Assembly (NCBI RefSeq): GCF_025526975.1 | Contig: NW_026515680.1 | Coordinates: forward strand, 186,001 to 250,000 | From: Fimicolochytrium jonesii | Lineage: Eukaryota | Length of the DNA stretch: 64,000 nucleotides | Direction: 5' to 3' | Part shown: one piece after another, positions 3,103-41,545 of the stretch | Position numbering within the stretch: the first letter of the stretch is position 1 | Layout: each line of letters opens with the position of its first letter | Notes under the pieces: model-generated | Database searches by the model: none | Told to the model about the DNA's origin: nothing | Seen by the model: only the letters and a program-made list of their open reading frames with translations | Position numbers and translations under genes: made by a program

Positions 3103-3896
3103 ATGTCCACCCCCTCCAAACGCCGCCTCATGCGCGACTTCAAGCGGCTCCAAACCGACCCCCCAGAAGGCGTCTCAGGCGCCCCTTGTCCCGACAACGT
3201 GCTTCTCTGGAACGCCGTGATTTTCGGGCCCGAGGAGACCCCGTTCGAGGACGGCACGTTTAAGTTGGCGTTGACGTTTGATGAGAGTTACCCGACGAAG
3301 CCGCCGCATGTGAAGTTTATTAGCAAGATGTTTCATCCGAATGTTTATGCGAATGGGGATTTGTGTTTGGATATACTGCAGAATAGGTGGTGAGTAGAGG
3401 GAGCGACGGCGGCGAGCGGTAGCGAGCCTGATTTGTGTAAGAGCCCGAGCGAAAGCGAGAGCGACCTGAGGCCGATTCCTCACGCGAGCCAAGCGAGCGG
3501 CTGGTGGAGGGAGGACGAACGCAGTGAGTGCGAGCGAAGCGAGTTCCTTACGCCAAAGGCGCAATCTCCATATTTACACGCGAGTTTCAACGAGCATTGG
3601 ACCCTTTGCGAGCGAAGCGAGCTCCGCCCACTGCCCACCGCCCCCAGCGACCGCATTCCTTAGTTGAGACATTCCAGTACGTAAACCCGTTCACTAACTG
3701 TGAAATCTCCCTCGTTCGCAAATGCAGGTCACCAACATACGACGTAGCAGCCATCCTCACATCGATCCAATCGCTTCTGCACGACCCGAACCCCAACAGC
3801 CCCGCCAACGCCGAAGCCGCGCGGTTGTTCCAAGAGAATAAGAAGGATTACAATAAGCGGGTTAGGGAGACTGTCGAGGAGTCTTGGCTGAATTAG
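3103..3896 (+). CDS. RAD6: Ubiquitin-conjugating enzyme E2 Rad6/Ubc2 (exons 3103-3389 and 3728-3896)
   Basis: [17 protein letters not shown]...[45 protein letters not shown] is near-invariant Rad6 with the catalytic Cys. GT-AG intron 3390-3727 restores the frame. Confidence 0.97.
3411..3622 (+). repeat. Intronic array of tandem-GA mini-hairpins (dispersed element copy, RAD6 intron)
   Basis: Seven related motifs, e.g. GGCGAGC-GGTA-GCGAGCC, ACGAAC-GCA-GTGAGT, GCGAGT-TTCA-ACGAGC and GCGAGC-GAA-GCGAGC. 3530-3564 matches the reverse complement of 33741-33776. Confidence 0.8.
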
Positions 3897-4673
3897 GGCG
3901 GGCGGAATGGAACCGGAAGCGGGACGCGGGGAAAGGGGGGATTGGAGAAGCGAGAGTAGGAATGGGCAGTGTGGGAGGCGGGATCGGGATCGGACGTCGT
4001 GCGAAGTTTGTGATGGAATACCTATGCGATTGCCGTGTCGTCAACACGGACCAACGTCGAGTTCGGGTTAGGGCAGAAATGGTTGGAGACAACCCGGGGG
4101 GAGAAATGGCGAGCGGCGGCGGAGGAAAAAGGAAGGGACACGATGGGGCGATCACGATGAGGCGCTTTTACCGGACGGGCGAGAACGAGAACGCAAACGA
4201 TACAGCTCAAAGTACACTTCGATTCATTACGTGTACAAACACATGCGCCCGCCGGGTCCCCACCCCCCTTGGGATGTGTTTCGGATTGATGGCGGATGGT
4301 GGAACGGCGAAATTACACGCATCACCCCACAGGACTTCTGCATTATCTCACCCCAACATTCCGCATACCCCTTCTGATGCTAGCGAGCATGTATCTCAAC
4401 CTCCAACCCCGTAGGTGTTCATCCCACTTCTTGTATGAAATACTAGGGCTAGATTTCGTCATGGTCTGTCCCTATCCCGTCCCACCCTTCCTCTCCCCAT
4501 CAGTGTTTCGTTGTTGTCGCAATGTGCCTTTTTTTTTTTGTATATGCATAATCAATGATCAAAAAACAACAAACGGTGCGAAATCGGGGAATTAGGGAAG
4601 AGAGAGATATTTAAGGGAGATATTTAAGGGGAAGTTCATTACTATCTACGTTATGCTCGAACGGCCACCACAT

Positions 4674-7654
4674 TCAACGATCCACCAAAACCGGCTTCCT
4701 CCGTCTCAACCCCTCCAACCCCACCTCCACACTCTGCACCCCTTCGATCCTCTTCCCCTCCGCCTGCTGCTCCTTCACGGCATTAGCATACCTCCCCAGG
4801 GCCCAGACCGGGAAATAGAACTTATAGTTCGGATACGCAATCATCGCATTGCGATTGAACACGCCCTCGATGCCCTCCTGGGCCCACGCGCCGGTCGGCA
4901 GCTGCCGCTGCATCAACAGCCGCACCCCGCGCTCCACCACCTCCCCCCCCGCGGCTCCCAGGGGGTACTTTGCGGCGAGGAGGGTCAGCACGGCCCAGGC
5001 GGTGTGCACGACCTGGCTGGTCTCGGCGGGGTGGTAGACGGCGGTCTCGGAGGACTTGTAGGTCTCACCCCAGCCTCCGTCCGTTTCCTGTTTCGCGACG
5101 AGGAACTCGCATGCGTTGCGGACGCGCGCGGACGAGTGGTAGGACTCGCGCGCGCAGGCGGCGAGACCCTCGACGGCGAACCAGGTCGCGTAGGTGAAGC
5201 AGATGGCCCAGCTTCCGAACCAGGATCCGTCCGGGTTCTGGGTGTTGCGGATGTACGCGACGCCCTGTGCGGTCGCGGCGGTGATCTCGGCGGCGCGGTA
5301 GTGGGCGTCGTGCGCGGCGAAGGCTTGGAGGCCGAGGAGGACCGCGGTGGTGCATTCCGGGTAGCTGTACTCGACCATGATGTCGCCGAAGACCTCGGCG
5401 GGGTTGATCTTCTCCAGCAGCGTTGGGGCCCGCCGCCGCTCGTACGAGGGGAACCCGCCGTCGGCGTTCTGCATGGGGAGGAGGATGTCGACGGCGTTGC
5501 GGAAGCGCGTGTCGGTGATCTTGGGGAAGGAGGACGAGGACATGTAGGGCAGGTTGTTCTGCATGTACAGCAGCGTCTTGAGCGCCTCCGCTGTGCAGTC
5601 CGACACGGTGTACCCCTGCATCCGCCGGCTGAACGGCCACGCGCCGTTCGTCTTGTCTCGGTAACAGCGGGTGTGGTTGTCGACGTTGTGCTGGATCTGC
5701 TGGCTGTCCAGGAAGCTGAACGCTTGCCGCATCATCGGCTCGAAGGCGGGCTCGAGGGCGAGCTGGGACTCGCAGGCGGCTTGGCAGAGGAAGGCGGTGT
5801 CCCAGACCTGGGACCCGTCGGTGCCGTTGAAGTGCATGCCTTGCGGGGAGAGCCAGATGTAGTCGGCGCAGCGGGAGAGGTGGGCCTGGAAGGAGGGGTG
5901 GGTGGGGCCGAGTTTGAAGTAGGTGCAGAGCATGTTCATGGGCTTGTTGACCTATGCGAATCATGGAGGGAGATGTTAGACCGGGGCGGATCGTGGGGCG
6001 GATATGATCCCCTGACAGGAACACAAACGTGCCTGTGTGTGTCACATACCGAAGCAAGATTCCCAAAAGATGTGTTCTTATCCTCCATCTCAAGCTGCCT
6101 CCACGCCTCATCAACCGCCCACTGCCTCACTTTGCGCGGGGCGATCTTCTCGTACAGCTTGCAAATCACTGGCAGGGGAGGGATAAGAGTTGAGAACCCG
6201 TGCTTGCCCATTCCTGGCGCCCCCTTCTCCCTCAAAAAAGAAGAAACTCACCATTCAACCCATCCAACACCCTCGTATGCGGATAAAACACCTCGGCCTC
6301 CGCAATGTTATTACACTGCGCATCCCAATCAATGCTCGCATACGGCTGCGCATACAGTTCCTCGCGCAGCTGTTCGAGCAGGGGTGTGATCTCGCCGCGG
6401 AGGCGTTGGCCGTAGATGAAGGACATGGGGAGGTAGACCATGCGCGTGTGGATCCACCAGCGGCCGGGGTGGATGGGGAGGGCGTAGGGGAGGAGCCTGA
6501 AGTGGGGGGGTGGGGATGGGTTAGGTAGATGTTGGTTTGAGGAGGAGGGGGGGGGTCAAAGGGCATTGTGTCATCACACATACCAGAGTTCAGGCGGAAC
6601 AGGGTTCATCCCCTCGTACTCATACACGCCCAACACGGCCAGCCAGAACTTGCCCCACGAGGGCACGCTGAGAGCGGTGCCGAGCCGGTGCAGCGTGGCG
6701 CGCGCTTTGATCATGGCCGGGTGGTCGCGGTCCACGCCGAGCAGGCGGCACGCGACGTAGTTGAGGGTGGTGCCAAAGACGGTCGAGACGCCTTCCGTGT
6801 GGCTGGCGGGGGTTATCAGACACGTGGCACGGTGAGTTCGGGGGCCCTTTTTAACATTCTCCCCCGCACATACGACAAGCATACGTACATTCCCCACCCG
6901 CCGTCCTCCTTACTCGCCATATTCAACAGGTACCGCACCATCTCGATCCGCGACGGTTCGTCGATCGTCTGCTTGCAGACATACATGGCGATGATGTATC
7001 CGGGGGTGAGGAAATGCGGGCCGCCATATGCGCCGGCGAAATGGCCGTCCTCGCATTGCAGCTTGCTGAAGAAGGTGAGACCGTTGCGCGCGGACTCGAG
7101 AGGGGTGCGTGCCGTGGGGAGGGTGGATACGTTCTGTTATCGGGGGAGGCGGACCAAAACGAAATGAGTATGAGTGCGCTGGACCGATGAATGAAAACGA
7201 CCCCTCCTACGGGATGTGGGACGGGCGCGGAGTATCGTATCAAGGACATCCTGCTGGGAATATCGAAACTTGGGCGGGAGAACCGACCCCAAGCAACCCT
7301 GCGCGTCACCGTCGCTCGGTCGCAGAACCCTCGAGCAACTCACACTTGCCCACTCCAACTCCTCCTGCCCCTCGCTTTGTCCATCGCATTCCTTCCTCGG
7401 GGAACTCACGTAACCCCCCCTCGATCGAAACTCAAACCCCCCCGCCCCACCCTTGTGCACAATCCCACCACCCCTCCATCCACTAAACCTACCATATCAA
7501 GATCCAGCCAATACCTATCAGCATGCGTCTGCGGCCACGCGCTCGCCGCGCGCTCATCTTCCAGGTAATGCCACGTCTGCCTGCCGTCCTCGCTGCGGAG
7601 CCGCCAGCGGGTGAGGTCGGTTGCGCGCAGGGGGGGTGGGTCTGACCTGCCCAT
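4674..7654 (-). CDS. ERG7: Oxidosqualene cyclase, lanosterol synthase type (multi-exon)
   Basis: N-terminal [15 protein letters not shown] repeats (QNADGGF, QNPDGSW, QETDGGW) and catalytic VSDCTAE. Thr in NGTDGSQ plus Q..V before SDCTAE are the lanosterol-type rather than cycloartenol-type (Y/H/I) residues. Confidence 0.95.
7278..7326 (-). repeat. Dispersed element fragment in ERG7 intron 1 (7134-7492)
   Basis: Minus strand CTGCGACCGAGCGACGGTGACGCGCAGGGTTGCTTGGGG aligns with BolA intron CTGCGACGAGCGAGGCGAGGCGCAGGGATGCTTGAGG (about 40915-40951) and with the NagD intron GCGCAGGGCTGCTTG. Confidence 0.65.
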
Positions 7655-8389
7655 TTGGTTTCGTCGCAGGGTTTGTTTTGCGATACTTGGAAGGTCGGAT
7701 ACCCGGCTCTGTGCGTCGCCTGGAGATGTGTTCAATTCAGTCCTGCGACTACGGGGGTTGTCTAGGGATGCAGTGCGAAAGTGCGAGGTGTGAGGGGTGA
7801 GGGGTCGGACTGAGTCGGGAGGGGCTTGGGATATAAAGGACTCCTCGTCTGCGACTTGCGTCTGCGGCTTGGGCGTGCATGGCGGGGATATGGATATGGT
7901 GTGGGGAACAAGGGCGAGGTGTGCTCTTCTTGCGAAAGTGCGTGGGCAGGAGGACATCGGGCCATCCATCGCGCGCGCTTCCCGTCAGTCCCTCTCTCAG
8001 CCAGTCCGCCGCAGTCCGTCAGGCGACTCAGGCCACAGGACGGAGGAGTCGCGTGACGGTTATCTGCGCACCGTGGGTCCGGATGGGAATCCACGCGGGT
8101 CCATCGACAAACCGGCGGTAACCACGCTGACCCAGACCCATTTAGCATACACACTCAAATGGGGTGCACAGCCACCTGCCCGTATTTGACAAGAGCATCA
8201 CCGAATGAAGCAACAGCAACCAGACCGCCTTCACTCTCTAATTATTCCCAGCCGAGGAAACAAACCCAATCCCCTTTCCGGTACCGGTATGAGTACCGGG
8301 GGGGGGGGGGGGGGGGGTATATTTATCGTCCTCAGAAGAGAAAAAACTCGTCAGGATCCTCCCCATCCCCACTCATCCCCGTCTACTCC

Positions 8390-11137
8390 TCACAACCCAG
8401 CCAACCCCGCCTCCCCCGCCAACTCCCCACACAACCCCTCCAACAACGCCCTCAGCTCCCTGACCCGTCCCACCACGCCCTTCAGCGCCGCCAGCTCGCC
8501 GCGCATGTGCCGCACCATCTCATTGCACTCGCCCAGCAGGCCCGCCAGCTCCCTGCACCGGCGTTCCAGGAACTCGTTCCGCGCCGCCAACGCACCGTTC
8601 TGGGCTTGCAGCGTTGGCATGTCGACCACCGGCGGGTGCGATGTCGCATTGTTCGGCGGGTTGTTGGGCGGGCGCGTGAAGGAGGGGTTGGAGACGGTGG
8701 AGATGGTTGTGGTGGTCGTGCCGCCGGTGGTGTTGCGGGAGGGTTGGTCGGGGTTGATGGAGGCGAGGAGCGTTGATTCGGTTGTTTCTGTTGCGGCTGT
8801 TGTTATGGATGAGCCCGAGGTGTTGCGCGGGGGTGGGAGGGTCGGTGGTAGGGGCTGGTGGGGTTCTGTTGTTGTTGTTGTTGTTGTTGTTGATGTGGGG
8901 GCTGGGGCGGTGGGAGGCGCAGGGAAGGATGAATCCCCACTGCTCCCGCTGCTCGTCTCCTGGGGCACCGCCGGCACCTCTTTCCTCCCTTCACTCGGCG
9001 CCCCGGCAGTCGAGCTCGCTCCAGACTCCGGCCGCGCCGACTCGACAAAATCGTCAAAGAACGGATTCGCCGGCGCTACAACGTCCATCTGATCATCCAC
9101 GACGTTCAGTTCCGCGGCGAGGTGGGGCCGCCGTAAAGGTATAGTCGTTCGTAACGGGAAGGGGAAGGGGTCGGAATTAGATCGTGGGGCTGGTTGTGGT
9201 GTTTCAGAGGCGGTGAAAGGGAACGAGCCGGCGCCGTCGGAGCCGGGGAGGCGGGAGGGGGAGGTTTCGGTGCGCGTGGGTGAGGGTGGGTGGATGGTGT
9301 TGGATGTGAGGGAGCGGTGACGTTGTGCCGGTGATGGTGGTATTCGTGCTGAATGGCGGTCGTCATCATCGGCGTTAACAGCCGCCGGCTGTTTCCCCTT
9401 CTCCCGCGCCGGATCCGCTTGGTCCCACTCCATCCCCGCCGCCGTATCCTCATGCTGCTGTTCTTCATCCCCATCCGCACTCCCTTCACTCCTCACCGAC
9501 CCCAGTCGCTGCACCGCACCCCCACCATCCGTCCTCCCCTCCCCACCACCCCCACCCTCCTTCCTCCCCTCCAACCCCTCCACAACCTGATTAAACACCA
9601 TCGCGGCAAGCCCCTGCGGCCCCGACTCCCTCCCCGACTCCCTCCCCACCTCCTCACTCCCACTCTCACTCTCCTCCAAACTCGCCGTCCGGGGCGTCAC
9701 CCGAATATGGGTGTCCGCATACCCATCATGCCGCCCTCCGCCCTCCTCGTCGGCCGACTCCCGGGTAGAGGACCGACGTCTGCTCACCCGGCGTCTCGGC
9801 GATCCGTTGGAGGAGGACAAGAGTTCACGAACACGCATCGCACTCGAATGTTCCAGACTCCCCCTCCTAGCCCGTTTCGTCGCGCGTCCACCACCACCAC
9901 CACCACCACCACTCTCATCGCTCTGCGCGCTGGATCTCCTAGACTCCCTGGTGCGCGGGTTGGGGAAGGGCGATGCGCCTGAATGAGAAGGATGGGAGTC
10001 GGGGAGGGTGATGAAGAAGCTGTTTGGGATGCCGAGGAGGTAGTCGAAGTAGGCGTCGATGTGGTGCCAGGTGAGCCAGTCTTTGATGCGGACGGCAATG
10101 TTGGTGCCGCGGCGGTGGAAGCCGAGGCTGCGGGCTATGTCGGACCATGATCGGAGCTGCAAATCATCGTTTAAAGGATATCAGCACGGATCTCCCTTTT
10201 AACGTTGGGCTCCAAATGAAGCACATTGTACCTTATCAACCCCGCCATAAAACTTCACCAGCTCAAACAAATCAAACGGCATAAACGAGCGTTTCTGGTT
10301 CCTCGGCGGTTGCATGAACTTGACGACATGCTCCTCGACGCTGCATTTGTCCGTGGGCTCGTTGTGGAAGGCTTTGATGAAGGCTTCGTAGGTCGGGCGG
10401 ATCGTTTCGCGAGTTATGGTGATTTGGCGGCCGGGTTGGAATTCGCGAAGGAGGTGGGCTGGAGGCCTCGGCTCTCCCACCGTATCGTGCCCCCCAGCCC
10501 TCCGCTCAATCGGATCATACGGCGGCTGCCTCTCCCCACCAGAACCAACTCTCTGCCCACTCCCATCCGAAAGATAATCATAAGGGAATGCTGGGCGAGG
10601 ATAATCCGGATATGCTTGCTGATGATGTTGGTGGTGATGTTGCGGTTGTTGACGATGGGGATAATGTTGTTGGGTAGTCGGTCCTGGTTGTTGTTGTTGT
10701 GGGTGATGCGATGGGTAACTGTATCCTCCGGAAGAGTATTGAGCGGGTGGGGGGAGGTGGTGCGGGTGTTGCGGCTGTTGTGTTAGTTGTGGTGGGTATG
10801 AAGATCCCTGCATCGGCTGCACATGCACACCCCCCTGCTGTGGAGGGTAAGAGGGCGAATACTGTTGTTGCGACTGCTGTTGATACTGGGGATGCCCCTG
10901 CTGTCCCTGCTGCTGTTGCTGCTGGTGCATGGTAGTATAGTGCGCGAAAACTTGGTGAGGATGGGTCACCTGGTCGGCGCGGGCAGCGTGTGTGGGTGAA
11001 AGTCGTTGATACTGCTGTGGGGGCAGCAAGTGGTGGTGGGGCTGGGAAGGAGGGTGGTGTGCGACGACAGGTGGTGCTGGCGGATAGGGTGCTCCAGTTG
11101 TGGGGGCGATGAGGGGTCTATCGCTCGGGGATGCCAT
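8390..11137 (-). CDS. ARID/BRIGHT-domain protein with Q/H/P-rich N-terminus and C-terminal coiled coil
   Basis: PFDLFELVKFYGGVDK|..RSWSDIARSLGF...IKDWL..YFDY fits the ARID pattern across a short intron (about 10160-10230). Flanks are low complexity with a heptad-like C-terminus. Confidence 0.75.
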
Positions 11138-11205
11138 CTCGCTGGGGCGCAAGGAGTGTTCTTTTATGGATTTTTCTGAGTGCTGTATATAAACGGGGCC
11201 CAGCC

Positions 11206-11235
11206 CTCTCTCTCTCTGTCTCTCTCTCTCTCTCT
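11206..11235. repeat. (CT)n microsatellite upstream of the ARID gene
   Basis: About 15 CT units with one interruption, next to a TATATA at about 11186. Confidence 0.9.
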
Positions 11236-12118
11236 TTCGTTGGAACCAGCCAAGGAATAGGACAGCATCAACAAGTTTGTCAGAGTGGGTAGCAGCGAGA
11301 CCCAGGGGGCGTTCTCTTTTGCTGTGAGGCCAGTCCAGCCCAGAGTGCAGTCTCTGTTCAGCGGTTGAGGGAATGGCGGAGGCCCGACCTCGGTTGGAAC
11401 TGGGCCCTGCCATCATGATCCCATTGCCATTGTTATTCCTATTGTCCCCTGTCGTCTATGATAACCAACCGCCCACGGATGATGACGCACGCTCCGGCCA
11501 GATGTCCGTCTGCGCCGTGGGTCCGGTTTAAAACACATCCAGCTTCCAACACGCCATGGAAACAGATGGGAAACCGCACTGGAGAAACCCGTCAGCTTCC
11601 CTCTCCGTAGTGGCCGCGTAGTTGCTCGTGGCCCAAGGGAACACCCCGTACCGCAGACCGCGCACTCGGATGACGGCAACCCAAGAAAGACCCCGTCACT
11701 GCAGGCAGCGCTTCTCAACCCCCACAAGCACAACGATAGATACAGAAGAGTAGTCGACATCGTTGGCCGTTCTGAAAGGGGGCCATCAGAAAAAATCTTA
11801 TTTCACTCGTACTACCCCCATTCATCAGCCCCCAAAACAAAACAAGGTGGGGCATATTGTGCCTCCTCCTCGGAAAAAAAAGCGACGATATACCCTTCCA
11901 CCCTCCTTTCTGAGAGATCCAAATACATTGCCACGGAGATCTGCCCGCCGTGCATCTCGCAGGACCCATCATGGGCCTCCCCCAAACTTGAACTGGGCGG
12001 ACTTTTGCAACACTACCCGCCCATCTCGGGCGCTATACACATATCACTGTTCCGCCCCCTTCGCTCTTCGCCGTTTAGACAACACCCGCATACCCTCTCC
12101 CCCCCAACCCCAACTCAT

Positions 12119-13161
12119 TCACTCATAAGCCCTCATAGCCTCATTCCCCCTCACCAGCCCCGCAAACCGACTCGGCATGCCCTCCCTCCACCCGGGCACC
12201 TCGAACGTGGTCGAATGGCACCACGGTTTGAGCGCGAGCTCCGTCTCGATCGCGCGGGCGAAATGCTCGCCCCAGCCTTTGCGGGGGTACGCGGTTGTCA
12301 CGGCGCTGATGAAGCTGGGGTGCAGGAGGGAGGTAAGGGTGCCGACGTTGTCTGCGATGGGGGGGGGGGGGGGGGTAATCCACAGTTGAGCACGTGGGTG
12401 AGAGCAGGGGCGGGGGTGTGGGGCAAGACGTTACCGAGGATGGTGGCGAGCTGGAGGACCTGGCCGAGGGTGGTGATGTTCCCTCTAGAAACACATCAAG
12501 CATATTCGTCTGAGCAAGCAGTGTGCCAATCCAAACAAAGGGGAGCTCCCCCGCCTCGGAAACGCAAACTCACCCCTTGACAAACACATCCTGATGCCTC
12601 ACGATCGCCTCACACGCCGCGTCGGCCACATCGCCGTCCCCGCCCAACTGCAAGACCGCATCCCGCGCCACAATCGCCCCGCGGAACTCAAACGACAGCT
12701 TGGTGCTGCTCAGGAACCGAGCCGCAAGACCAAGGTCGTGGAGCAGGCTCGTGAGGTAGTACGTCTCGGCGTCGAGGCGCCACGTCGGGAAATGGGTGCG
12801 GACCAGCGCGAGCCCGAAGAAGAACACCCGGTGGCTGTGCGCAACGGTGGGCGGGTCTAGCTCTTTCTGTTTTGATAACCCGGGACGATAGTGATTTAGT
12901 TGAGATGGGGACACTTCAGTACTCGTAGTAGCGACCGACTCCCCCGCCCCCCCCCCCCCCCCGCCGATCAACGGGTACCTGAACAAACTCGTGCACAGCC
13001 TTGGCCAACGGCGTCTCCGGGATCGGGAAATCCGCGAGTTCGAACGGATCCTGTCTGGGATGCGGGCCTGAGGCGGTCGGATGGTCTTTGAACAGCACGT
13101 CGGGGTCGCGGGGGACGGCGGTGAAGCCGTAGCGCTCGATGGTGGGGTCTTGGTGAGACAT
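12119..13161 (-). CDS. Cyanamide hydratase (HD-domain, Ddi2/Ddi3/CAH family), 4 exons
   Basis: YGFTAVPRD, HSHRVFFFG, LLHDLG (HD motif), TKLSFEFRGA, EAIVRHQD, GNITTLGQVLQLATILDNVG, YPRKGW, KPWCHST. Confidence 0.88.
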
Positions 13162-18894: not shown

Positions 18895-19709
18895 ATCTAG
18901 AGAACAGGCCCGTAATAGTCCGTTCTCCCGGTGACTATATATTTTCTACATCTCTGTATCCAAAAACGAAAAACCTTTTGGTCCCAACCCCATTGTAACC
19001 TCCAACAAAGTGAGCCGCCGCGTTCGTCGCTGCACGGACCACCTCCGCACTGGTTGGGAGTCTTGGGACATGGGTGTCCTTGCTCGTTTAGGAAGTGGGT
19101 TCATGTCCCCAACAACGACCGCAATATGCACGGAAGTTGTCGAAATATGTCGCCTTGCTCGTACCGCCGGTTCTGGCAATTGTCCCACACTCCGGGTCGC
19201 TGGTCAGGCGCCCGCTGATTGTCATGTCATGGGAGCACCTGCTCGCCTCGCTTCTTCTCTCGTCGAGTGCACGCTCCTTCCCGCTGACCGTGAGAAGAGG
19301 CGAGGCGAGCAGGTGCTCCCATGATCTAGAGAACAGGCCCGTGATAGTCCGTGCTCCCAGTGACTATATATTTTCTACATCTCTGTATCCAAAAACGAAA
19401 AATGTTTTGGTCCCAACCCCGTTGTAACCTCCAATAAAGTGAGCCGCCGAGTTCGTCGCTGCACGGACCATCTCCGCACTGGTTGGGACACGGGTGTCCT
19501 TGCTCGTTTAGGAAGTGGGTTCATGTCCCCAACAACGACCGCAATATGCACGGAAGTTGTCGAAATATGTCGCCTTGCTAGTACCGCCGGTTCTGGCGAT
19601 TGTCCCGCACTCCGGGTCGCTGGTCAGGCGCCGGCTGATTGTCATGTCATGGGAGCACCTGCTCGCCTCGCTTCTTCTCACGGCCAGCGGGAAGGAGCGT
19701 GCACTCGAC
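18895..19709. repeat. About 360-bp direct duplication with an inverted 63-bp segment at the junction
   Basis: 18895-19259 matches 19324-19679 (offset 429 then 420, one 9-bp indel). 19262-19324 is the reverse complement of 19647-19709 with two mismatches. Confidence 0.95.
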
Positions 19710-28186: not shown

Positions 28187-28338
28187 GGTTGCCTAACAGA
28201 GTGCTACCTTCCTGTCCTTCAAGTGACGTGGGCGATCTGAAGCCGGAGTGATGACGGCGGGGTGCTGATGACCTTAGAGCCGTTTGAAAATGAGCCAGGC
28301 TAGAGGCTCTCCGGAAAGCACAGCAATAGCTCAGCATA

Positions 28339-28350
28339 AGTCACGTGACT
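28339..28350. promoter_or_regulatory. Palindromic E-box AGTCACGTGACT (candidate bHLH site) about 155 bp upstream of the PRP39 start
   Basis: Perfect 12-bp palindrome containing GTCACGTGAC (Cbf1/USF-type consensus). Function not shown. Confidence 0.3.
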
Positions 28351-29736
28351 ACTTGGGATATTTAATCCTGCTCTCTGCGGTTTTGACAGTTTGCACGTTT
28401 CTGACATTCTTTCCCTCACAGGGAAAGAGCTTTATCAGCTCAAGACGTTACGGGTGCGTAGACCTGAAGCTGAACATGCCAGGCCAACAAAATCTCCATC
28501 CAGAACGGGTATGGGCAATGGGCTATTTGACTGGGTTCTTTTGCAACGAGATGGTTTGGTTAGGTTTGCTTTCGATTTGATTTCCTTACAGCTCCGGTGG
28601 ACGCCGTCTCTTGATTTGTGTGATGCTCAAAAATTGCATGTAGCAAACTGCAATATTGCGAGGTGTTGGCTGTATAGAGAGCGACGATTAGGATTTGCCT
28701 TCAGATTATTGAACGAAGGCGCACTCTGCATCGCTATAACCGGAGAGAGCTAAGAAGCCACTTATGACGGTGGCATCTGTGAGGCAGCGAATAACCTCCG
28801 GTGGACCAGCCGGCCCAGAAAGCTCAGCAAGCGCATCCATTGGCCCATTGCATAAGTGGAAAGTAAGGCCACTACCCTTCCCTTATTTAGGCGTAGCGAT
28901 CATGTGTCCCGAGGGTTTGGGTTGACAGTGCTGCACGGTATAGTAATAGTGGGAGTAATGATGAGCGGCGTAGTGCTGTACTGTACTGTACGTATAGTAG
29001 TAGGTGTCTGCCTACTCACTCACGGGAGTTCAATATCTCCCGCATTATAGAAGCTCCAGGCACGAAATAAGCGTACTTTTTCCCACTGTACGGAAACACA
29101 TTGCACATACCATTGCATACTATCCACACCGCAAAGTCTATCCACATACACAATTAGAGCAAACCCCGCTTTGCAGCTACTGGCCCGGAGATTTACGTCC
29201 CTCAAGTAAGCTCCCACTCGCCCGCTGACTCGGGGCACCGCCTGCTTTTGCCAGCACACTATATAGAGACCCTGGGGTGTCCGCCACCCTTCTCGTTTCT
29301 TTCTCTTCACAACGAGACAACCCGGTAAAGACCCTCTGAATAGAGGCTCCATATTCATAGCACCAGAGCAGAACCGATACAGAGCAATTGAACCAAACAT
29401 ACAATCGAATTCGCCGAGTACACCGCAACAACACCGTACTATTTTACAGCAGAATAAGTGTCAGCACCAGCAGCGAGTAGACTCAGTCAGCAGCAGACGC
29501 TAGCAACAGTGTTGAAAGGGCGCTTTTCGTCTAGGTGAGTTTCTTTGGTCTGGAGGCGCTTTGGTGTGTTTGGTATGAGCGTGGTCGACCAAAGCGGCGG
29601 ACAGCACAGACGGCACCTGGCCCCGGAGCAAAGCTCTGTCCAGCTCCTTTTGGGCAGCATCAAAGAGGGAGATGCCCGTGATCTTGTCCGCATGGTGTAG
29701 CACTCGGAGCGCTTTGAAGATGCCCTCCTCGCAGTC

Positions 29737-29955
29737 GCCTTAGGCGGCTGCGACGGACCAGCGCACCGGAGGCCGCTGTGAAATAGAACATACACATCCG
29801 AAGAACTGCGTTCCTAGGTGCCTTTAACGGCTACGTTGGAACATCGTCACGAAAGCCGTTGTGAAATGGAACATGAACATTTGAAGAACGTTGCCTTAGG
29901 CGGCTGCACCGGATTATCGTCCCGAAAGACGTTGTGAAATGGGACTTGCACATTT
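29737..29955. repeat. Three degenerate tandem copies of an about 63-bp unit (spacing 83 and 73 bp)
   Basis: GCCTTAGGCGGCTGC...GYTGTGAAATRGRAC starts at 29737, 29820 and 29893. Confidence 0.75.
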
Positions 29956-30014
29956 GTAGAACCCGTCTGCTAACCACAGCGATTTTCGTATGGCGCATCC
30001 ATAGAAGGAACGAA

Positions 30015-32507: not shown

Positions 32508-34443
32508 CTACGCCTCCCTTGGGACAACCTCCCCCACCCCATTACAAACCACCCACGGCCGATACGCCTGACTCCTCACATCCTCGGGCCTGCTCACCCC
32601 GCTCATCACCAAGACGGGGTCGATCTCGGCGTACACACCGCTGAGAATATCGGTGTCCATGCGGTCGCCAATGATGCATGTTTCGTCTTTGGAGGTTCCG
32701 AGGATGGTGGCGGCGTAGCGGAGCATGAGGGAGGTGGGTTTGCCGAGGTAGAATGCCTAGGGGGGTAGGAGAGATGGAGTTGGTGGAGTTAGGGAGGGCA
32801 TACGGCGTTGAGGGATGCGGTTATGAAGCACACAGATTTCGCCACGGAACCTTACGGCCGGAAGCCAACTCGACCGCGGCACAAAACGCCCCAGTAGCCG
32901 GGGCGATCCCGCCCTCCGTCGGCCCATTGACGTCCGGGTTGGTCCCGATCAGTTTGGCGCCCTTGTACACCAGGTTGACCGCTTTCGAGATCTTGTCGAA
33001 GGTCTGGCTGCTGCCTTCGCCTATCACGACGTAATCCGGGTTCTGCAAAGATTCACATGTCAGGAACATCATACCCGTGCACGATATATCCCCCCAATCA
33101 CACCACTATGATACCACAACGTACCGTCTCATTCATACTGAACCCAACCTCATACAACGCATATATAAGCCCCGGCTCGCCAACAACATAAACCGTCCCG
33201 CCATTCGGTTTCTGGCTCTGCAGGAATTTGGCGGTCGCGATGGCCGAGGTGTAGAAATGGTCTTCGGTGACGGAGAGGCCGAGGCGGGCGAGCTTGAAGG
33301 AGAGCTCGCGAGGGGTTGGGGCGGAGTTGTTTGTCTGAGTAGGAGGGGTTAGCGGCGGGTGGCTGGGAGAGGGGGGAAAGCAAAGGGGGACTTACGAGGA
33401 AGAGGAACTTTTTGTCTTCTTTTTTGAGCCAGTGGATGAAATCTTTGACGCCGGGAAGGAGGACGTTGCCGTGGTAGATTACGCCGTCCATGTCGATGAT
33501 AAAGCCCTGCAATGCGAAGGGATGGATCAAGCGACGCGTAAATGACGGTGAAGTAATGGATGAAGGATTAGCAACGGAGGGCTCAGACATTGTTCCTCCA
33601 GGCCCGGTTGATGGTTGAACTGAAGCGATGGAACGCGATGGTTGAACGATCCCTGCTCGAGCGGCTGGTGACGGACCTCGTTCCGTCCGCCAAAGATCAA
33701 CGCTCGCCGGAGCTCCTTAAGAACTGCAGTGGGCATATTGTTGCACCTTTGGCGCAACGGAACTCGCTTCGCTCGCGAAGGCGGTCGCCCCTGGTCGCCC
33801 TTGCCACCGCTAGGGCACCGAGAAGAGAACCCAATTCAAGCAGCCCTGCGCCCGCTCATGCTCAAGCCTCGTTCCGCCGTCCCCCATAACTTCCCACCCC
33901 AACCCTCGCACACACCTTCTTGTTCTGGATGACCTTCAACCTAGCCTGGTACTCGTCGGCGGACAGTTCCGACAACTGACATAACTCCTTCGCAGTGAAG
34001 TGCTGGAGGGACTTTGCAGTGAGGTCTGAGAGGGCGGTGGAGCTGAGGTGGGCGAGGTCTGCCATTGTTCCTGTGAATTGTTTCTTATGTGTGCGTGAGT
34101 GTTGTGATGAAGACGATGGCGAGCGATGGCGTTTGGAGGGCTGATGGCCGGTTTGAGGTGTGCTGCTGCTCGAAGCCAAGCCCAAGCCCAAGTGTAACGC
34201 GTTTGGGTCGCCCTCCGAGCCGTCCCAGCCGGCGTGTTTGTTGTTCAGGTGGCCGCGGAGCGTCGTGTTGCCCGTGCCCACGCTGTAAAGCCCTCCGCAC
34301 CACCGGCACTCTCGCTTCTCCGGGTTGCCCGCTGCCACCGGAAAGTTGAGCTCCATTAGGCGTTTGATTCGGCCGTCGTGGACTCGGGGTGGTCGGCGGA
34401 CCGCTTCTTGCGTCGTCGTGGTGGCATTGCTGGGGTCCGCCAT
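32508..34443 (-). CDS. BED zinc finger fused to a NagD-like HAD-IIA phosphatase (5 exons)
   Basis: Exon 1 (34443-33916) has CRWC...GNTTLRGHLNNKH. Phase-0 intron 33915-33507 joins IQNKK|GFIIDMDGVIY. Then FL|TNNS, TNPD, GKP and IIGDRMDTDI.G (HAD motifs I-IV). Confidence 0.8.
33741..33851 (-). repeat. Dispersed element copy in BED-NagD intron 1
   Basis: Minus strand GCGCAGGGCTGCTTG...GACCAGGGGCGACCGCCTTCGCGAGCGAAGCGAGTTCCGTTGCGCCAAAGGTGCAA shares blocks with the RAD6, BolA and ERG7 introns. Confidence 0.8.
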
Positions 34444-34899
34444 TGGGAAGCTGTCCGGAGGTGTGCTTTCGGTGAAGATATGCCGTTCCTGACGTGGTGG
34501 CAAACAGCGAAGCACCTCACCTTGTTTGGCTGTGCAAGATGCGTTTAAGAGGTACTGTATAAGTGGAAGGGCGGTTTCGCCGTGAGCTACGGGGGTTAGC
34601 AAAAGGAGTGCTCGGCTGCTCGATCGAGTTGAGCACAGGAGCAAGCCTGCTTGAGAGGGCCGAGAAAGCCGAGCAGAGAAGTCGTCCGCCCGCGCGTGTT
34701 CTCCAGTTCGCTGAGGCTTGTTGCTCCAGTTTCCAAGTGAGGTGTGAAACCTTCACAGATGGTATCGCAAACCTCATCCGAAGCCGTTCCCATTCACCTT
34801 CCACACAAAACGGCATAGGCTACGAGCAACCGTCTCCCGCCCTTCGTCTATGCGCCTTCACTTAACTCGCTACATCGGCTGATAGTCGTGCGCGTTGGC

Positions 34900-37050
34900 T
34901 CCATGACCAGTCCGTCTCCGCAAGAAACCGCCCTTAAGTATCCCATCCAGATCAGCGCGACCGAAGGGGGTTCTTACACCTCCACCTGCCAAACAAAGCG
35001 TCACCTGATGGAAATATCAGAGAAGTGCGTGGAACCAAGAGACGGACGATATAGACTCAGGCGAAAGCTCCTCCAGGAAGAGCGAAAGCAGATACTGGAA
35101 AAGTACTGGTGTAGCTGATAGTGCAGTTGCTATGACCGGCTCCGGCCGAATAGCAGGAACTCTTGAGTGACGCCAACGGAAGCTCGAACCATTTTAATCT
35201 AAGACCGACGGCTGATAGCGGTGCCCCGTCCATTATCGTTGCGGACTCGGACTACTTTCCGCAGACGCCAGGACGGTGGGAAGCTTTAATTTCACCGGCG
35301 ATACGGCGCCTGGAAGTAGGGAATGCTCAGCTCAGATGACGGCGATCGGTTTATACTCAGCGGCCAGGGTTATCCACTACAATCGTTTACATACAAGTGA
35401 ACCCGATAGCGATATGGAACACCATACCGAACACCTACCGAGCTTCACACTTTGGACGCCCTTCGCTGGGTAGGGTATTACAGATCGGGCGATGGGGAAG
35501 GGTTAACTAAACCGCCACTGAGAATTGCACAAATAAGACGGCGCATCGTTTTCGGTACAGACGGAACCATCAGCGATGCATCGATTGATTATATTCGCTT
35601 CATGCTGGAGGGTATGCTTTCAGAACATATGCAGTTTGACCTCAGGGTGGGTGGAGTATCGCCCAACGGAAGTAAAGTGCGGAGCTGTACGTGTCTCTGG
35701 ACATGGCAACCGACTCGTGTACAACGCGCTGGAAGCGGGATGTAACTCGTCGTCGGGAGCGTCGGCTGTTTCTCCAGACGCTGAACAACTTTTTATCCAA
35801 CCGGAGCTTCGTGCGTGGACGCCTCGCTCAACGACCAAGCATCTATACGCAAGGCACGCTGAGAGAGAAGGGCCCCGGGCGTACAACGCCTCGCACGTGA
35901 AATGTTGGCCTGATTTTCGTCGTTGTGGGCGCGGATCGGTGTTACCATTGGCAAAAGAATGAGAGCAGGAGGAGCTACCTGAATACGTCTATTAGGGCAA
36001 CCCATTCCAGACGATTCAGCGGTACGGAAGATGGAGTTCAGATGCGTTTGAGAGGTACAGTACATTCGGTCGCACCCCGAGTCCTTAGTGGAGCTGATGT
36101 GAAGGAACTGGCTCGACACCCCGCCCTATTTTTTTCGAGCGGTGACGTACAACATCAGCACCAAGCACGTCGGCCCCACCAACAACGAGGTGTACGACTG
36201 GCTGTTGAGAAACACACGCAGGGGGGTGTGTACGCCTGTTTGATGTGCGCGTTGCCGGCCGTTGTCTTCCTCCCAGCCGCTAAGTTGCCCGTAAAAGTGG
36301 AGGATAACCCCATTGCGGACCTGGTTCTCGTGGCAAATACACTTTCGGACATACAGCGCACTCTTACGCACGTTGACTCATTCATACAACGCCTTGAAAT
36401 GATCTTGGAGGAAGGCGGAGTGTTACTGAACATCGCCAGTCGCCAAAGCAAACCAAAATGAGGGTTTGACCCTCACCAGGCTTTCAGTTGAACAGAACGT
36501 TAGCTCGAAACCAACATTGGCTACCATTGAGACGTCGTCTCCATCAACGCTGTTTCTCAATTCCCAATCTCGAGAGCAGTGGTTGAAGACTTTTTAGCCG
36601 CCAGATCTGATGACCATTCGAAGCAACGCCATCCGACGGGTTCGTCATCCCGCACACCAGAGCGGCCACTACAACGAAAATGTGATCATCACCCCGATCT
36701 TGGGCCGTTCAACAATCCAGTCGGCAATCGGTTGCGTTGACCAAAGTTCCAGACATACTGAATGCCGGGCGTCTCGCAGTTTACTGGGTAAGGGGGCAAC
36801 TGAGCGTATGAGGCTTCGCTCAAATCTCCGACCGTGGTGGTGCTTACGCCCATGGATGTGCGATCCGAGTCTGCCGCCCCGCAGTTGGAGGTCTGAGCGG
36901 GCGGAAGAAGAAGCTGTTGGTTTTTTCTATTCCGGTAATGACTGCGTCTTGGAATTCCATATGGCTTGGGTAACAGTAATGTGAACCGCATGGAGGTCAA
37001 TGGTTCTTGTACAGCAGTGTACGTGGAACATCATGGCACCATTCTAGCTA
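34900..37050 (+). pseudogene. Possible decayed coding sequence (Crinkler/REase- or kinase-like remnants)
   Basis: Short broken ORFs with HVKCWPDF, TEDGVQMRL and LLGKGAT.. fragments and many stops or frameshifts. The family assignment is only a resemblance. Confidence 0.25.
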
Positions 37051-37472
37051 TGGGTTGATGGGGGGGGGGGGGGGGGGGGCGGTTCGATGGCCCTAGAGAT
37101 ATGGGTTGTCACACTACCGTACGGTACACTGGGTAGGATATCACACAATGCAGAGGTTGAGTGTACGGCAGCCTTTGGAACGGGTCGTGATATACATTCT
37201 TCTTCCAGCAGGGCGCATATCATTCCTAGCAGAGGGTTATCGAAATAACGCGTCGCCGCGTGACTTGTCCGAAACACTCGGAAAGTCCGAAAGAGCAGGT
37301 TTGAGCCAATGCACTCATTACTGCTACGGCGCTGCATAACAAACACCCACTGCACGTCCGCTGGCCTCACAAGTCTTCCTTAGCCCCTACAAAACCCAGC
37401 CGCCTCGCTCATTACGCTGCTGAATTGTCTCACTTGAAATTTTGCTACGTTGGCAGGTCAGGCCACAGCACA

Positions 37473-39168
37473 ATGCTCTCCCACGCAGCGCCCGAGGAGT
37501 TCCAAGCGGACATCATCTTCAGTCCAAATATGCACGCCGACGACACGCAATTCACGTTCCTCGAGTTACCGAAAGAAATTGCAGATCGGTATTTCAAGGA
37601 AGATGCTGAGGAGGATGGCGGATGCGTGTTGGGGGAACGGACTGGGTGGGTGCAGCTTTAACGAAATTTGTGCAGTTGGGGGGTCGACAGTGTCATAACT
37701 GAGTGTATCACACGCCAGCCTAGTCATCCGCGGCCTAGAATCCGACGAAGCCGTCCTCTGCACACCCACCACGACCTACGCCCTCCGCAGCGTCCAGACA
37801 TCAAACACCATGTTACTCCTCCGTGAGTCCGTCAGAGATGTAGATGAGATGGACACTGGCGGGGAAGCAAGACGGTTGTACGAGATCCACGAAGCGATGA
37901 CAACTTACCAGGAGATGGTGCCGTGTCAGCCGCGGTTGGATCGGTTGAGGCAGTTGTTGGAGGAGGCGATGTATAGGGGGCCCGGGGAGGAAGCGGGGAT
38001 AAGGGCAAGACGGGTAGGTGCGTGTCGCCAAAGACGCATTGGGGTGTAGCGTACTGACGGGATGTTTGGGAGATATAGAAACAGGATGGACAAGAGATGA
38101 AGCTTTATACCACGGACGACTTCCGGGATATGATCCAGGCTAGTGATGCGGAGATACAGAAGGGGCTTGAGGATGTGGGCGCTGTGTTGATGGATGGTAA
38201 GCGAGGCCACCCAGCCCGTTTTACGGATCCCTGACGTCGCAGCTCACTGTATATTGCCCCATTGTACAGGCCGCTGGCGGCTCTTGGATTCAAGCTACAA
38301 GACCTCCACCCTCAAATACCTCCTCATATCCGCGATCGCCGAAGACATGTCTATCGACAGCCTACCGGAATTGACTTGCGTAGCGTTGATGAAGGAAGAA
38401 GGCGTCCCAGAATGTGTTGTGAGACAGCTGTTGCGGTATTTTGCGAATGAGGTGGAGGAGAGGGATGGAGGTATGTTCAAATGGATTGTTATCGTATGGA
38501 GAGTAAATGGCTTACGACATGCAAGCAGAAGTGTTCTACAAGTTGTCAGAGGACAAGATTGGACGGTATCTCGGGGAGCAGCTGCTTGCGACCGCTGAGG
38601 TAACTATTCGCGCCTGACCGCATTCTATGGTTGGCAGGATGGTTCTCACGCCTTGTCCGCCACCCAGCTCCGCCAAACCCCCCTCGCAAACTTCATGCGT
38701 ACATGGCGCGAGCACGTACCCGAAAACATCTCAATCGACATACAAATGCTGAAGGTGGCTGCTGTTTCCCCCATTCTCTCACTATATCCCGCTCTATGTC
38801 CTCACACGCTTCACTCGCAGGGCTTATGTCTCCTCGAAGAATCACCCAACAAAACAGTCATCCAATACTTCCCTAAATCGTTGTTACCAATGGACGCCAA
38901 ATCGCGCTTCGAAACGCTGTTTAGGTGTAGGAAGAAGTGGAGTGGGGCGGAGATTATGCCTTACGGTAATGTGAAGTTTGGGTATCATGTTATACTGCTT
39001 TGGGGTGGCGAACTTCTCACTGATGATGTTATGGGATGTGATTTTTTTTTGGTAGTTGAGGATTTGGCACCGACTGCGCAGAAATTGGATGCGGTATTGT
39101 TGAAGTTTGCGAGGGTTTCGAGGGTGGGCGGGACGACGTTTTATACGAGTCGGTATGCTGTTAAGTGA
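37473..39168 (+). CDS. DCC1: Sister chromatid cohesion protein Dcc1 (Ctf18-RFC subunit), multi-exon
   Basis: FLELPKE..|LVIRGLESDEAVLCTPTTTYALRSVQTSNTMLL, PRLDRLRQLL, IQASDAEI, LPMDAKSRFETLF..RKKW, LLKFAR. Confidence 0.9.
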
Positions 39169-39715
39169 GGGGTGGTATCGTATGGAATGGATGGACATGC
39201 AGCCGGCGAGGGGGGACTGGGCGGACAGACGAGCGGGTAGATTCGAAGTTTCCCCGGTGGCATCAGCATGGCGTATTGGACGGGAAACCACCCCTCCCTC
39301 ACATTTGTCGCGGCGGCGTATGTTCAACAGCGCTCTCAGTAACGTCATAGCCCCCTGCATTCGACGATATTCATCGCGGCGCCGTATGTCCTGTGATAGT
39401 ACTCCCCTTTCCGATAGTTTGTAGCATATAGATTAATAGAAACATGGAAGATAGACCCGCCAGTGTACGGCGCGGAGATCATCAAAAGGAAAGGTCCTAC
39501 GAATGATCTGTTCAATGTCCCACAACGAATAGCACCGCATCGTCCCATCCCTCCGACATTGGAGTCCAGCGATCCGACGCATCGCTCTTCACATCCATCA
39601 TGTGCCACAGTCGACCTTCCCTCTCGGTGGCATCCACCGAACGGGGAATACTGCCTCGAGACGACCGCGTCCACGCCGACAAGCCAGATGACAGTCCTCC
39701 TAAACACTCCTCTCT

Positions 39716-39934
39716 CTGAGCGACAGCGAGCGCGAGCGGAGGAAGCCGCGCTGCAGGTGCAAGTAAATGTGAGCGACAGCGAACGGTCGTCGTCATTACT
39801 CGTTCGACTATCAAACCATCCCTTGCCCGTCGTTCCCATCCACCCACCCAATCATCCGTCGCCCGTTCGTGTGGATGTATTCAAGGTTGGAGCCGGTGTG
39901 AACCAATGACCATTGTAATGAGCGACAGCGAACA
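39716..39934 (+). repeat. Orphan copy of the GA-hairpin element between DCC1 and BolA
   Basis: 39731-39790 CGCGAGCGGAGGAAGCCGCGCTGCAGGTGCAAGTAAATGTGAGCGACAGCGAACGGTCGT aligns with BolA intron 41031-41085. TGAGC-GACA-GCGAR occurs three times. Confidence 0.7.
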
Positions 39935-40576
39935 GCAAATGTGATGATGAATGTTCGTTTTTATTACGGCGTTATGTATACAGAAACGATCATAGATTGC
40001 ACGCGTTTCAGACGGGAAGTGCAGGCGATAAGCGACGACGAAGCCGAAGGGATACGTGCCAGCGAGTGAATGTTGAGCGAGAGAGGAAGCCGAGACAGCG
40101 ATAGAGTGGTGAAACTGCTCTGGACAGCTGAAAGTACAGTAGACGTAGCTCTGTTGGGCGTGTTGTTTGTGAGGAAAGAAGTGGCCAGCAAACGCGTCTT
40201 CCCATGGCAGCTTACGGAGAACGCGACGCGCCAAATTGTTTGGAATCCGATCGCCTCCCTTCATGGTTATTTGCACGTCTGCCGGTCGATGACTTTTGAA
40301 AGTGTCCCGCAACCGAGGACCCTCCCATCTTCATCCCCCAGACAGATCCTTTGACGAACGCTAATCAAAACGACATGCAAAAACTGCCCCAAATGATTAG
40401 GCGCCTAAACAGAAGTGGCCAATCGCCCCCCCCCCCCCCTAAGCTGAGTCTAACTTGAAGGACTAAGGCGTGCATAGCTCGGCGGTGTAAGATTGGGGAT
40501 TTTGGGTGAGAAATAGGGTTGCACTGGTAGATAAATACGGAGCCCCATCAGCCTCTCCCTCTTCATCAACACCCGC

Positions 40577-41545
40577 ATGACCACCCTCCGCCTCCCCTCT
40601 CTCTTGCGCCACGTCGCCTTCCCGCGCACACCCGTCATTTCCAGGTCTTTTGCGACGAAACCCGCAACAATGGCAGGTCCAGTCTACTCGAGCATCGAAA
40701 CCAAGCTGACGGAGGCACTACAGCCGACTGTTCTGGAGATTGTAGACGAGAGCTATAAGCATGCCGGTCATGCTGCTATGAAGGGTTTGAAGCCAGTTGA
40801 AACGCACTTCAGGTGGGAATAGCGGAGTGAACGAGCAGGGAATTGGTTCGGTCTGGGAGACCGAGCGTAGGGGCGGTCGACCAGAGGGAACGCCTTCGCG
40901 AGCGAAGCGAGCGACTGCGACGAGCGAGGCGAGGCGCAGGGATGCTTGAGGCAGGCGAGCCATGAGCCGAGCCCTGGTTCGGCGGTCTGGAAAACCGAGC
41001 GTCAATGAGGTCGACCAGAGCGAACGCCTACGCGAGCGAAGCGGCGCCGCAGGCGCAATACCTGTGAGTAATAGCGAACGGTCGTTCTTAAGCGATGGCG
41101 GGCCCTTATGTGAGCGAAAGCGAACGATCGTTTCTTACTGGTTTTTAGTGATCATCGGTGGGTTGATGATTGAATGTCGATGGTTGGATGGGTTGATGTG
41201 TGGCTTATGGTTGATAGGTCGATGGGTGGTGGATGGATGACGGTTGCTGGGTCGACGGGTTGGTCGATGGTCGGTGGGTTGATGGTCAATGGTTGACTGT
41301 TAACGCATGTTTCGTCCCGTGGGATATAGGGTAACGGCCGTTTCGTCAAAGTTCGAAGGCAAGCGTCTCGTACAAAGGCATCAGGTACAACTAGCGACGC
41401 TCTCTTTTTCATCAAAGTATTGTCAACTGATACAGCTATATATGTCGATAAACAGCTAGTGTACGAAATCTTGGGACAGGAGCTGAAGGAGGGTTTGCAT
41501 GCGCTGTCGTTGTCGACAAAGACGCCTGAGGAGTATCAGAAGTGA
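40577..41545 (+). CDS. BolA-family protein (BolA1/Bol1-like) with probable mitochondrial presequence; exons 40577-40812, 41330-41384, about 41456-41545
   Basis: IETKLTEALQPTVLEIVDESYKHAGH...ETHFR|VTAVSSKFEGKRLVQRHQ|LVYEILGQELKEGLHALSLSTKTPEE. Confidence 0.93.
40870..41130 (+). repeat. Two tandem copies of the dispersed GA-hairpin element in BolA intron 1 (40813-41329)
   Basis: GGTCGACCAGAG[G/C]GAACGCCT[T/A]CGCGAGCGAAGC at about 40875 and 41009. Hairpins GTGAGT-AATA-GCGAAC and GTGAGC-GAAA-GCGAAC. Followed by about 150 bp of degenerate GGTYGAT repeats. Confidence 0.85.

What the first reader, a model, noticed from the sequence alone, without database searches (positions are those of the whole stretch)
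3390..41329. Dispersed modular element occupying the long introns of four unrelated genes, always in sense orientation
Seen: most introns here are about 55-100 nt, but RAD6 intron 1 (338 nt), ERG7 intron 1 (359), BED-NagD intron 1 (409) and BolA intron 1 (517) are long and share blocks. Block A, GCGCAGGGNTGCTTG, is in ERG7 7290-7304(-), NagD 33837-33851(-) and BolA 40934-40948(+). Block B, GACCAG.G.GA.CGCCTWCGCGAGCGAAGC, is in NagD and twice in BolA. Block C, GCGAGCGAAGCGAGTTCC(G)TTRCGCCAAAGGYGCAA, is in RAD6 3530-3564 and NagD 33776-33741, 33 of 36 identical. All four are first introns of the coding region and carry the element on the transcribed-sense strand (two + genes, two - genes). Block order differs between copies. 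No TIR, TSD or ORF was seen. Inference: an undescribed intron-resident mobile or structured ncRNA family. It could be a non-autonomous element mobilised through ssDNA hairpins (HUH/rolling-circle-like) or an intronic RNA module affecting splicing. With only four intronic copies the strand bias is suggestive, not proven.
Basis: partly seen in the sequence, partly recalled or inferred. Interest (0 to 1): 0.85.

Follow-up and report, generated by a model that had tools for sequence, protein, structure and literature searches.

The report
One-strand DNA hairpin repeat in introns
In this soil chytrid fungus the first introns of four unrelated genes, plus one spot between genes, carry copies of a repeat made of small hairpins predicted to fold only on the DNA strand that is left unpaired during transcription, so it is likely a jumping element that moves as single-stranded DNA, with its enzyme still unknown.

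Summary
The four long first introns share sequence blocks on the sense strand, far above chance. Of 59 introns I modelled, 6 exceed 200 nt and 4 of these carry the element. Block order is mostly colinear and differs by internal duplication. The RAD6 and ERG7 intron positions are old, so these are insertions into existing introns, not introners. The core is a strand-specific hairpin: tandem G.A pairs around a GC-GNA/GNNA-GC mini-hairpin, known to be very stable as DNA and much less as RNA. It occurs 11 times against 2.1 in shuffles, always inside the clusters and on one strand. The same hairpin words sit in non-coding DNA of phages, giant viruses and a bacterium, but no longer homologue, Rfam family, TIR, TSD or enzyme was found. 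The host is Fimicolochytrium jonesii or very close. Best reading (about 0.5): an old non-autonomous element moved as single-stranded DNA, working like bacterial REP/BIME mosaics, oriented by transcription. No genome or RNA was available, so mobility and genome-wide bias are untested.

The parts
3390..3727 (+). RAD6 intron 1 (338 nt), host intron at an old position; element core about 3400-3635
   Evidence: 4 of 15 cluster members stop at the same residue
3414..3620 (+). five tandem-G.A mini-hairpins (starts 3414, 3447, 3517, 3532, 3610) plus two decayed ones (3486, 3582)
3530..3564 (+). block C: G.A hairpin followed by a 7-bp stem with AAA loop
7134..7492 (-). ERG7 intron 1 (359 nt), ancient intron position; decayed element piece about 7265-7340
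7290..7304 (-). block A in ERG7
33507..33915 (-). NagD-like HAD hydrolase intron 1 (409 nt); element core about 33645-33885, most complete single-unit copy (A, B, C in order)
33837..33851 (-). block A in NagD
33741..33796 (-). blocks B and C in NagD, sharing the G.A hairpin at 33763-33776
39660..39806 (+). fifth cluster, outside modelled genes, between DCC1 and BolA: two GACA-loop hairpins and a GCA-loop stem, closed by an 8-bp inverted repeat (39660-39667 / 39784-39791)
39918..39934 (+). further single GACA-loop hairpin of the fifth cluster; weaker relics near 40028-40098
40813..41329 (+). BolA intron 1 (517 nt); element core about 40822-41141
40849..41043 (+). internal tandem duplication (40849-40909 and 40983-41043, period 134, 52 of 61 identical) with block A (40934-40948) between the two block B copies
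41064..41141 (+). two copies of the module shared with the fifth cluster (41064-41080 decayed, 41110-41126); similarity to the fifth cluster ends near 41141, a possible 3' end
   Evidence: end read by eye

Best explanation
The five clusters are diverged copies of one non-coding repeat of about 200-300 bases built from strand-specific hairpins predicted to fold as single-stranded DNA, and it is likely an old non-autonomous mobile element that an unidentified, probably HUH-type, enzyme copied into the transcription-exposed strand near gene starts. Shown: shared blocks, sense orientation, insertion inside older introns (RAD6, ERG7), conserved module order with internal duplication, hairpin enrichment on one strand. 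From established chemistry: GC-GNA-GC and GC-GNNA-GC are unusually stable DNA hairpins, much weaker as RNA, and CGAG blocks pair through sheared G.A pairs; the reverse complement cannot form them. Inferred: mobility; a single-stranded intermediate; the enzyme class; tandem duplication by rolling-circle-like copying; orientation set by exposure of the non-template strand during transcription, probably reinforced by loss of antisense copies that create false 3' splice sites; survival only in introns and between genes.
For: Hairpin motif 11 times vs 2.1 +- 1.5 (max 5) in 40 local shuffles; 11 of 11 in the clusters and on the cluster's sense strand; loop closed by C-G in 11 of 11 although the scan left it free; 4 of 5 pairs show two-sided changes, covariation 0.43 vs 0.28 shuffled; loops GAA x4, GCA, GACA x3, GGTA, GAAA x2, so only 2 of 11 are GNRA; DNA Tm 72-76.5 C vs 39 C for the RNA 8-mer (PMC13037366 section 2.3); CGAG blocks (PMC10085684 abstract). 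Orientation flips between neighbours 4-6 kb apart in step with gene direction (RAD6 +, ERG7 -, NagD -, BolA +). 4 of 15 first coding introns vs 0 of 44 others, p=0.003. Old intron positions: 108 of 150 ERG7 fragments stop at the junction; 138 of 150 read Val there. The same hairpin words are non-coding in 13 of 14 and 31 of 43 viral loci, against 3 of 21 for a control palindrome, and occur in a tandem bacterial repeat beside a tRNA gene. Antisense copies would give strong acceptor-like sites in RAD6 (9.4 bits) and BolA (8.0).
Against: No empty site, no TSD, no TIR, no shared 5' end and no candidate enzyme in the window; copies are diverged, so current activity is not shown. Only 5 clusters: orientation p is 0.06-0.125 two-sided. 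Standard folding gives no significant z-score for whole copies as DNA (only one 27-nt hairpin is strong, and it folds on both strands). The covariation set was picked with the hairpin pattern, so it leans towards the structure. ERG7 has no G.A hairpin. The antisense-acceptor effect is absent in NagD and ERG7. Viral and bacterial matches are limited to 17-26-base words (one 47-base, 81% match) and may be convergent; 8 of the 14 loci are similar small genomes.
Confidence: 0.5

Rival explanations
1. A host cis-regulatory DNA module: the hairpins extrude from the non-template strand near promoters and bind a protein that tunes housekeeping genes; any mobile origin is ancient.
For: First-intron and promoter-side location; hairpin conserved while sequence drifts; a CGAG-block hairpin was proposed as a promoter switch for AUTS2 (PMC10085684 abstract). 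A near-identical strain in soil DNA has 1 difference in 151 bases over the element and 4 in 151 over the adjacent, mostly non-element part (too few to test).
Against: Blocks of 36-61 bases shared between unrelated genes, with tandem duplication and truncation, look like copying; copy content differs widely (0 to 5 hairpins).
Confidence: 0.2
2. Remnants of an RNA-level or introner-like element nested in older introns; the sense bias comes from insertion at the pre-mRNA stage, as proposed for Micromonas introner elements.
For: Micromonas elements are sense-only and 32 remnants lie inside conserved introns (PMC3879977 passages); one module begins with a donor-like word (5.2-6.9 bits).
Against: Similarity does not reach the splice sites; 0 introner families were reported for F. 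jonesii (PMC12130899 supplement file 7); loops fit DNA rather than RNA rules; no RT or tail seen.
Confidence: 0.15
3. A structured intronic RNA module (stable intron RNA, kink-turn-like protein site or splicing regulator).
For: Sense orientation inside introns; tandem G.A pairs also occur in RNA (own knowledge); NagD core RNA z -1.8.
Against: No Rfam family; no 3-base bulge beside the G.A pairs as kink-turns need (read); 9 of 11 loops are not GNRA; BolA RNA z -1.2; one cluster outside modelled genes.
Confidence: 0.12
4. Chance similarity of GC-rich introns.
For: The ERG7 links to RAD6 and NagD are marginal.
Against: 0 of 150 shuffles reach six of the ten pair scores among the five clusters; 14-mer 5 matches vs 0.05 expected.
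Confidence: 0.01

Closest known systems
Bacterial REPs and BIMEs with RAYT (TnpA-REP) transposases (PMC2817692, passages read)
   Same: Short imperfect hairpins meant for single-stranded DNA, mini-hairpin loops in several REPs, head-to-tail basic modules, complementary changes that keep the fold, non-coding location, proposed non-autonomous mobility with rolling-circle amplification.
   Different: Eukaryotic nuclear genome; all modules on one strand instead of alternating inverted REPs; no GTAG/GTGG head; tandem G.A stems; intron and transcription-sense bias; no associated enzyme found.
DNA mini-hairpins and CGAG blocks (PMC13037366 section 2.3 and passages; PMC10085684 abstract)
   Same: The core words are exactly these motifs, known at phage single-strand origins, ssiA and N4 promoters.
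   Different: Here they are chained into a dispersed repeat in spliceosomal introns; those papers, as far as read, describe no such repeat.
Non-autonomous Helitrons and Replitrons (PMC10741241 passages)
   Same: Eukaryotic HUH elements without TIRs; Helitrons leave no TSD and have a sub-terminal hairpin; the BolA copy ends in a 16-base hairpin, 12 bases, then CTRR and T.
   Different: No shared 5' TC; the matching end of the fifth cluster is not CTRR; three copies lack that end; no terminal direct repeats or TSDs of Replitrons.
Introners / introner-like elements (PMC12130899, PMC3879977; passages and supplement rows)
   Same: Repeated sequence in introns, sense orientation; remnants can be buried in older introns; the main Parmales family moves by an unknown mechanism.
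   Different: The element does not reach the splice sites and sits in old introns; none reported for this species.

Membership tests
Introner | similarity extends to both splice sites | tested here: not met
   intron ends differ, shared blocks are internal; criterion
Introner | intron position is new | tested here: not met
   RAD6 and ERG7 positions are shared with other organisms; NagD and BolA positions not resolved
MITE | terminal inverted repeats and TSD | tested here: not met
   no shared terminal arms or flanking duplication; only an 8-bp closing stem in the fifth cluster
REP/BIME | imperfect hairpins in head-to-tail modules, non-coding | tested here: met
REP/BIME | GT(A/G)G head and alternating inverted orientation | tested here: not met
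   all hairpins on one strand; no common head
REP/BIME | cognate RAYT gene flanked by the repeat | not testable with these tools
   no genome held; none among 150 window ORFs scanned
Helitron (non-autonomous) | 3' hairpin 10-12 nt before CTRR, followed by T | tested here: inconclusive
   fits BolA 41110-41141; not the fifth cluster; end absent in three copies
Helitron (non-autonomous) | 5' TC after A | tested here: not met
   no shared 5' TC, though the true 5' end is not defined
Replitron | 5-11 bp terminal direct repeats, TSD, HUH ORF | tested here: not met
   no ORF
snoRNA or other Rfam RNA | match to a curated model | tested here: not met
   0 at gathering score in the window; best E 0.48-3.9 in three regions; ERG7 intron not scanned in E-value mode
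Kink-turn | 3-base bulge next to tandem G.A pairs between two stems | tested here: not met
   symmetric 2x2 G.A loop in 13 aligned copies; definition from own knowledge
DNA mini-hairpin / CGAG block | GC-GNA-GC or GC-GNNA-GC with C-G closure, flanked by GA/GA | tested here: met
   (sequence only; folding not measured)
Dfam/Repbase families | match to a known eukaryotic repeat | not testable with these tools
   no such library offered

The most novel reading that the evidence does not exclude
A eukaryotic nuclear counterpart of bacterial REP/BIME mosaics: a single-stranded-DNA element that is targeted to the non-template strand at the start of transcribed genes, sits in about a quarter of first introns (4 of 15 here; about 80 clusters per Mb if the window is typical) and is moved by a eukaryotic enzyme not yet linked to any transposon, possibly acquired from bacteria or giant viruses.
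Probability: 0.25. Interest if true: 0.85.

Novelty: new variant of a known kind. Interest (0 to 1): 0.6.

Why it matters
Known eukaryotic repeats are recognised by TIRs, TSDs, tails or Helitron ends; this one has none and would escape both repeat and introner pipelines. If real genome-wide, it points to a transcription-coupled single-stranded route of DNA mobility in fungi, gives a handle to find the enzyme (long copies flanked by the hairpins), and explains the long-intron tail in a compact-intron genome. The test is cheap because the species has a public assembly.

Tried and rejected
No genome held. Sequencing-run search listed no RNA holder; the two RNA runs laid gave nothing on the element, which says nothing on expression. 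Metagenome scan with block B: 10 loci, all bacterial-looking, 9 with no similarity beyond the word, one (L008) a tandem non-coding repeat with the same vocabulary. Prokaryote genome scans: 0 and 0. Viral scans with long patterns: 0, 3 chance, 0, 0. Plasmid and phage blastn: 3 hits at E 0.9 and none. The small viral contigs carrying the hairpin show no Rep by Pfam or PHROG, so they do not name the enzyme. Thermodynamic folding was uninformative. My automatic gene finder chained genes and was replaced by hand models; DCC1 is partial, the last exons of NagD and the carrier may be off, and a few genes were not modelled. One BolA protein search returned nothing, so the age of the BolA and NagD introns is open. 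Literature: 0 papers hold the 14-base core word; searches (listings only) showed no description of this repeat; PMC5737381 passages held nothing on GNA loops. Orientation by replication strand was considered and judged unlikely because orientation flips within 4-6 kb with gene direction (inference).

Full report
Host and setting. RAD6 exon 1 is 96% identical to chytrid proteins and the BolA N-terminal part is 100% identical to a named Fimicolochytrium jonesii protein whose spliced sequence equals my model across the 517-nt intron. No whole genome was held, so all counts are for the 64-kb window.

Observation. On hand models of 16 genes with open spliced frames, 59 introns have a median of 77 nt; 52 of 59 are 55-105 nt; 6 exceed 200 nt. 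Four of the 6 carry the element; PRP39 intron 4 and carrier intron 1 do not. All four are first coding introns: 4 of 15 against 0 of 44, p=0.003. Sense-strand alignment scores of six of the ten pairs among the five clusters exceed all 150 shuffles; antisense scores are at or near background; ERG7 is firmly tied only to BolA. A soil DNA run holds 40840-40990 with 1 difference and 41091-41241 with 4, so the BolA insert is not an assembly artefact, unless that run is the source.

Missed copy. A fifth cluster lies at 39,660-40,100 between DCC1 and BolA on the + strand, the direction of both neighbours. The region has no coding signal. It could lie in an unannotated UTR intron (acceptor-like site at 40341, no branch motif); RNA data are needed.

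Anatomy. NagD reads A, B, C. BolA reads partial A, B, A, B, decayed C, then two copies of a module shared with the fifth cluster; its B units repeat with period 134 at 52 of 61 identity. RAD6 reads decayed B, extra hairpins, C, another hairpin. So there is one colinear master unit with internal duplication and loss, not free shuffling (reading of alignments; mean column identity only 50-56%). No TIR or TSD was found. Similarity between BolA and the fifth cluster stops near 41141, where BolA shows a Helitron-like hairpin-12 nt-CTRR end; the fifth cluster does not have CTRR there.

The introns are older than the element. Four of 15 RAD6 cluster members, called without splicing, stop at the same residue. 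Of 150 hits to ERG7 exon 1, 108 lose similarity at the junction and 138 read Val there, the read-through of a GT donor. The introner screen listed 0 families for F. jonesii (supplement rows). BolA and NagD positions were not resolved.

What is conserved. A scan for GA, two pairs, a G..A loop of 3-4 bases, GA and an outer pair found 11 hits against 2.1 +- 1.5 in 40 local shuffles; all 11 lie in four of the five clusters, on the cluster strand. All 11 close the loop with C-G, which the scan did not ask for. In 13 aligned copies 4 of 5 pairs change on both sides (the set was chosen by the pattern, so this is partly circular). Only 2 of 11 loops are GNRA. These words are the known DNA mini-hairpins (Tm 72-76.5 C; the RNA 8-mer 39 C; PMC13037366 section 2.3 read; passages on phage origins and N4 promoters) set in CGAG blocks with sheared G.A pairs (PMC10085684 abstract). 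Because G.A pairs become T.C on the other strand, the fold exists on one strand only (inference). Against this, standard energy models give no significant z-score for whole copies as DNA or RNA.

Elsewhere. Long patterns found nothing in prokaryote genomes or viral contigs and chance coding hits in metagenomes, bar one tandem repeat beside a bacterial tRNA-His. The hairpin words themselves lie outside ORFs of 100 codons in 13 of 14 and 31 of 43 viral loci (22 of 31 distinct contexts), sometimes beside sister hairpins on the same strand, while a control palindrome is non-coding in 3 of 21. This shows a recurring non-coding motif of mobile genomes, not homology. Rfam gave nothing.

Mechanism. 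Most likely an old non-autonomous element with a single-stranded DNA stage, analogous to REP/BIME mosaics, for which rolling-circle amplification of a basic module by a tyrosine transposase was proposed (PMC2817692 passages). Orientation follows gene direction, flipping within 4-6 kb, which fits exposure of the non-template strand near gene starts. Selection may add to it: inverted copies would offer strong acceptor-like sites in RAD6 and BolA but not in NagD or ERG7. Mobility, enzyme and targeting are all inferred; confidence 0.5. Rivals: host DNA regulatory module 0.2, nested introner or RNA-level remnant 0.15 (PMC3879977 passages), structured RNA 0.12.

Novelty. It fails the tested defining features of introners, MITEs, Replitrons, REPs and Rfam RNAs and is inconclusive for the Helitron 3' end; Dfam and Repbase could not be checked. 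Ten literature searches showed no description. Earlier AI notes of this scan report similar G.A hairpin arrays in other eukaryote-like assemblies and an archaeon, so the vocabulary is not unique; the first-intron, transcription-sense placement is what is new here. Verdict: real, new variant of a known kind, interest 0.6.

Noticed in passing
window 27473-27045 (-): PRP39 intron 4 is 429 nt, lacks the element and seems to hold a cassette exon with an early stop (about 27340-27205), as in autoregulated splicing factors; seen by eye.
   Followed up: no
window 18895-19709: Tandem duplication of about 420 bases (93% identical) with a 98-base fold-back at 19227-19324, between the ABC transporter and hydrolase genes.
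   Followed up: no
window 34443-33916 (-): A BED-finger-like stretch lies in frame upstream of the NagD start at 34065; the joining part looks like a 5' UTR; no Pfam or PHROG match.
   Followed up: partly
window 29734-29962: Three diverged tandem copies of about 75-80 bases upstream of an arginine/serine-rich ORF.
   Followed up: no
window 41150-41301 (+): The 3' part of the BolA intron is a degenerate GT-rich short-unit repeat unrelated to the hairpin element.
   Followed up: no
window 40195-40245: Cluster of MCB/E2F-like sites (motif names recalled) in the DCC1-BolA gap with no coding gene found next to it.
   Followed up: partly
L015-L017, L020, L021, L025-L027: Eight viral contigs of 2.9-3.5 kb carry the same G.A hairpin in their non-coding region; no Rep found by Pfam or PHROG among the ORFs scanned.
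   Followed up: partly
L014, L023: Giant-virus bin contigs carry the hairpin inside tandem intergenic repeats.
   Followed up: no
L050, L061, L064, L067, L075: The GAAA-loop hairpin sits just before a gene start whose N-terminus recalls Avd of diversity-generating retroelements (recalled, not tested).
   Followed up: no
L008 2480-2640 (-): Bacterial tandem intergenic repeat beside tRNA-His sharing words with blocks A, B and C.
   Followed up: partly
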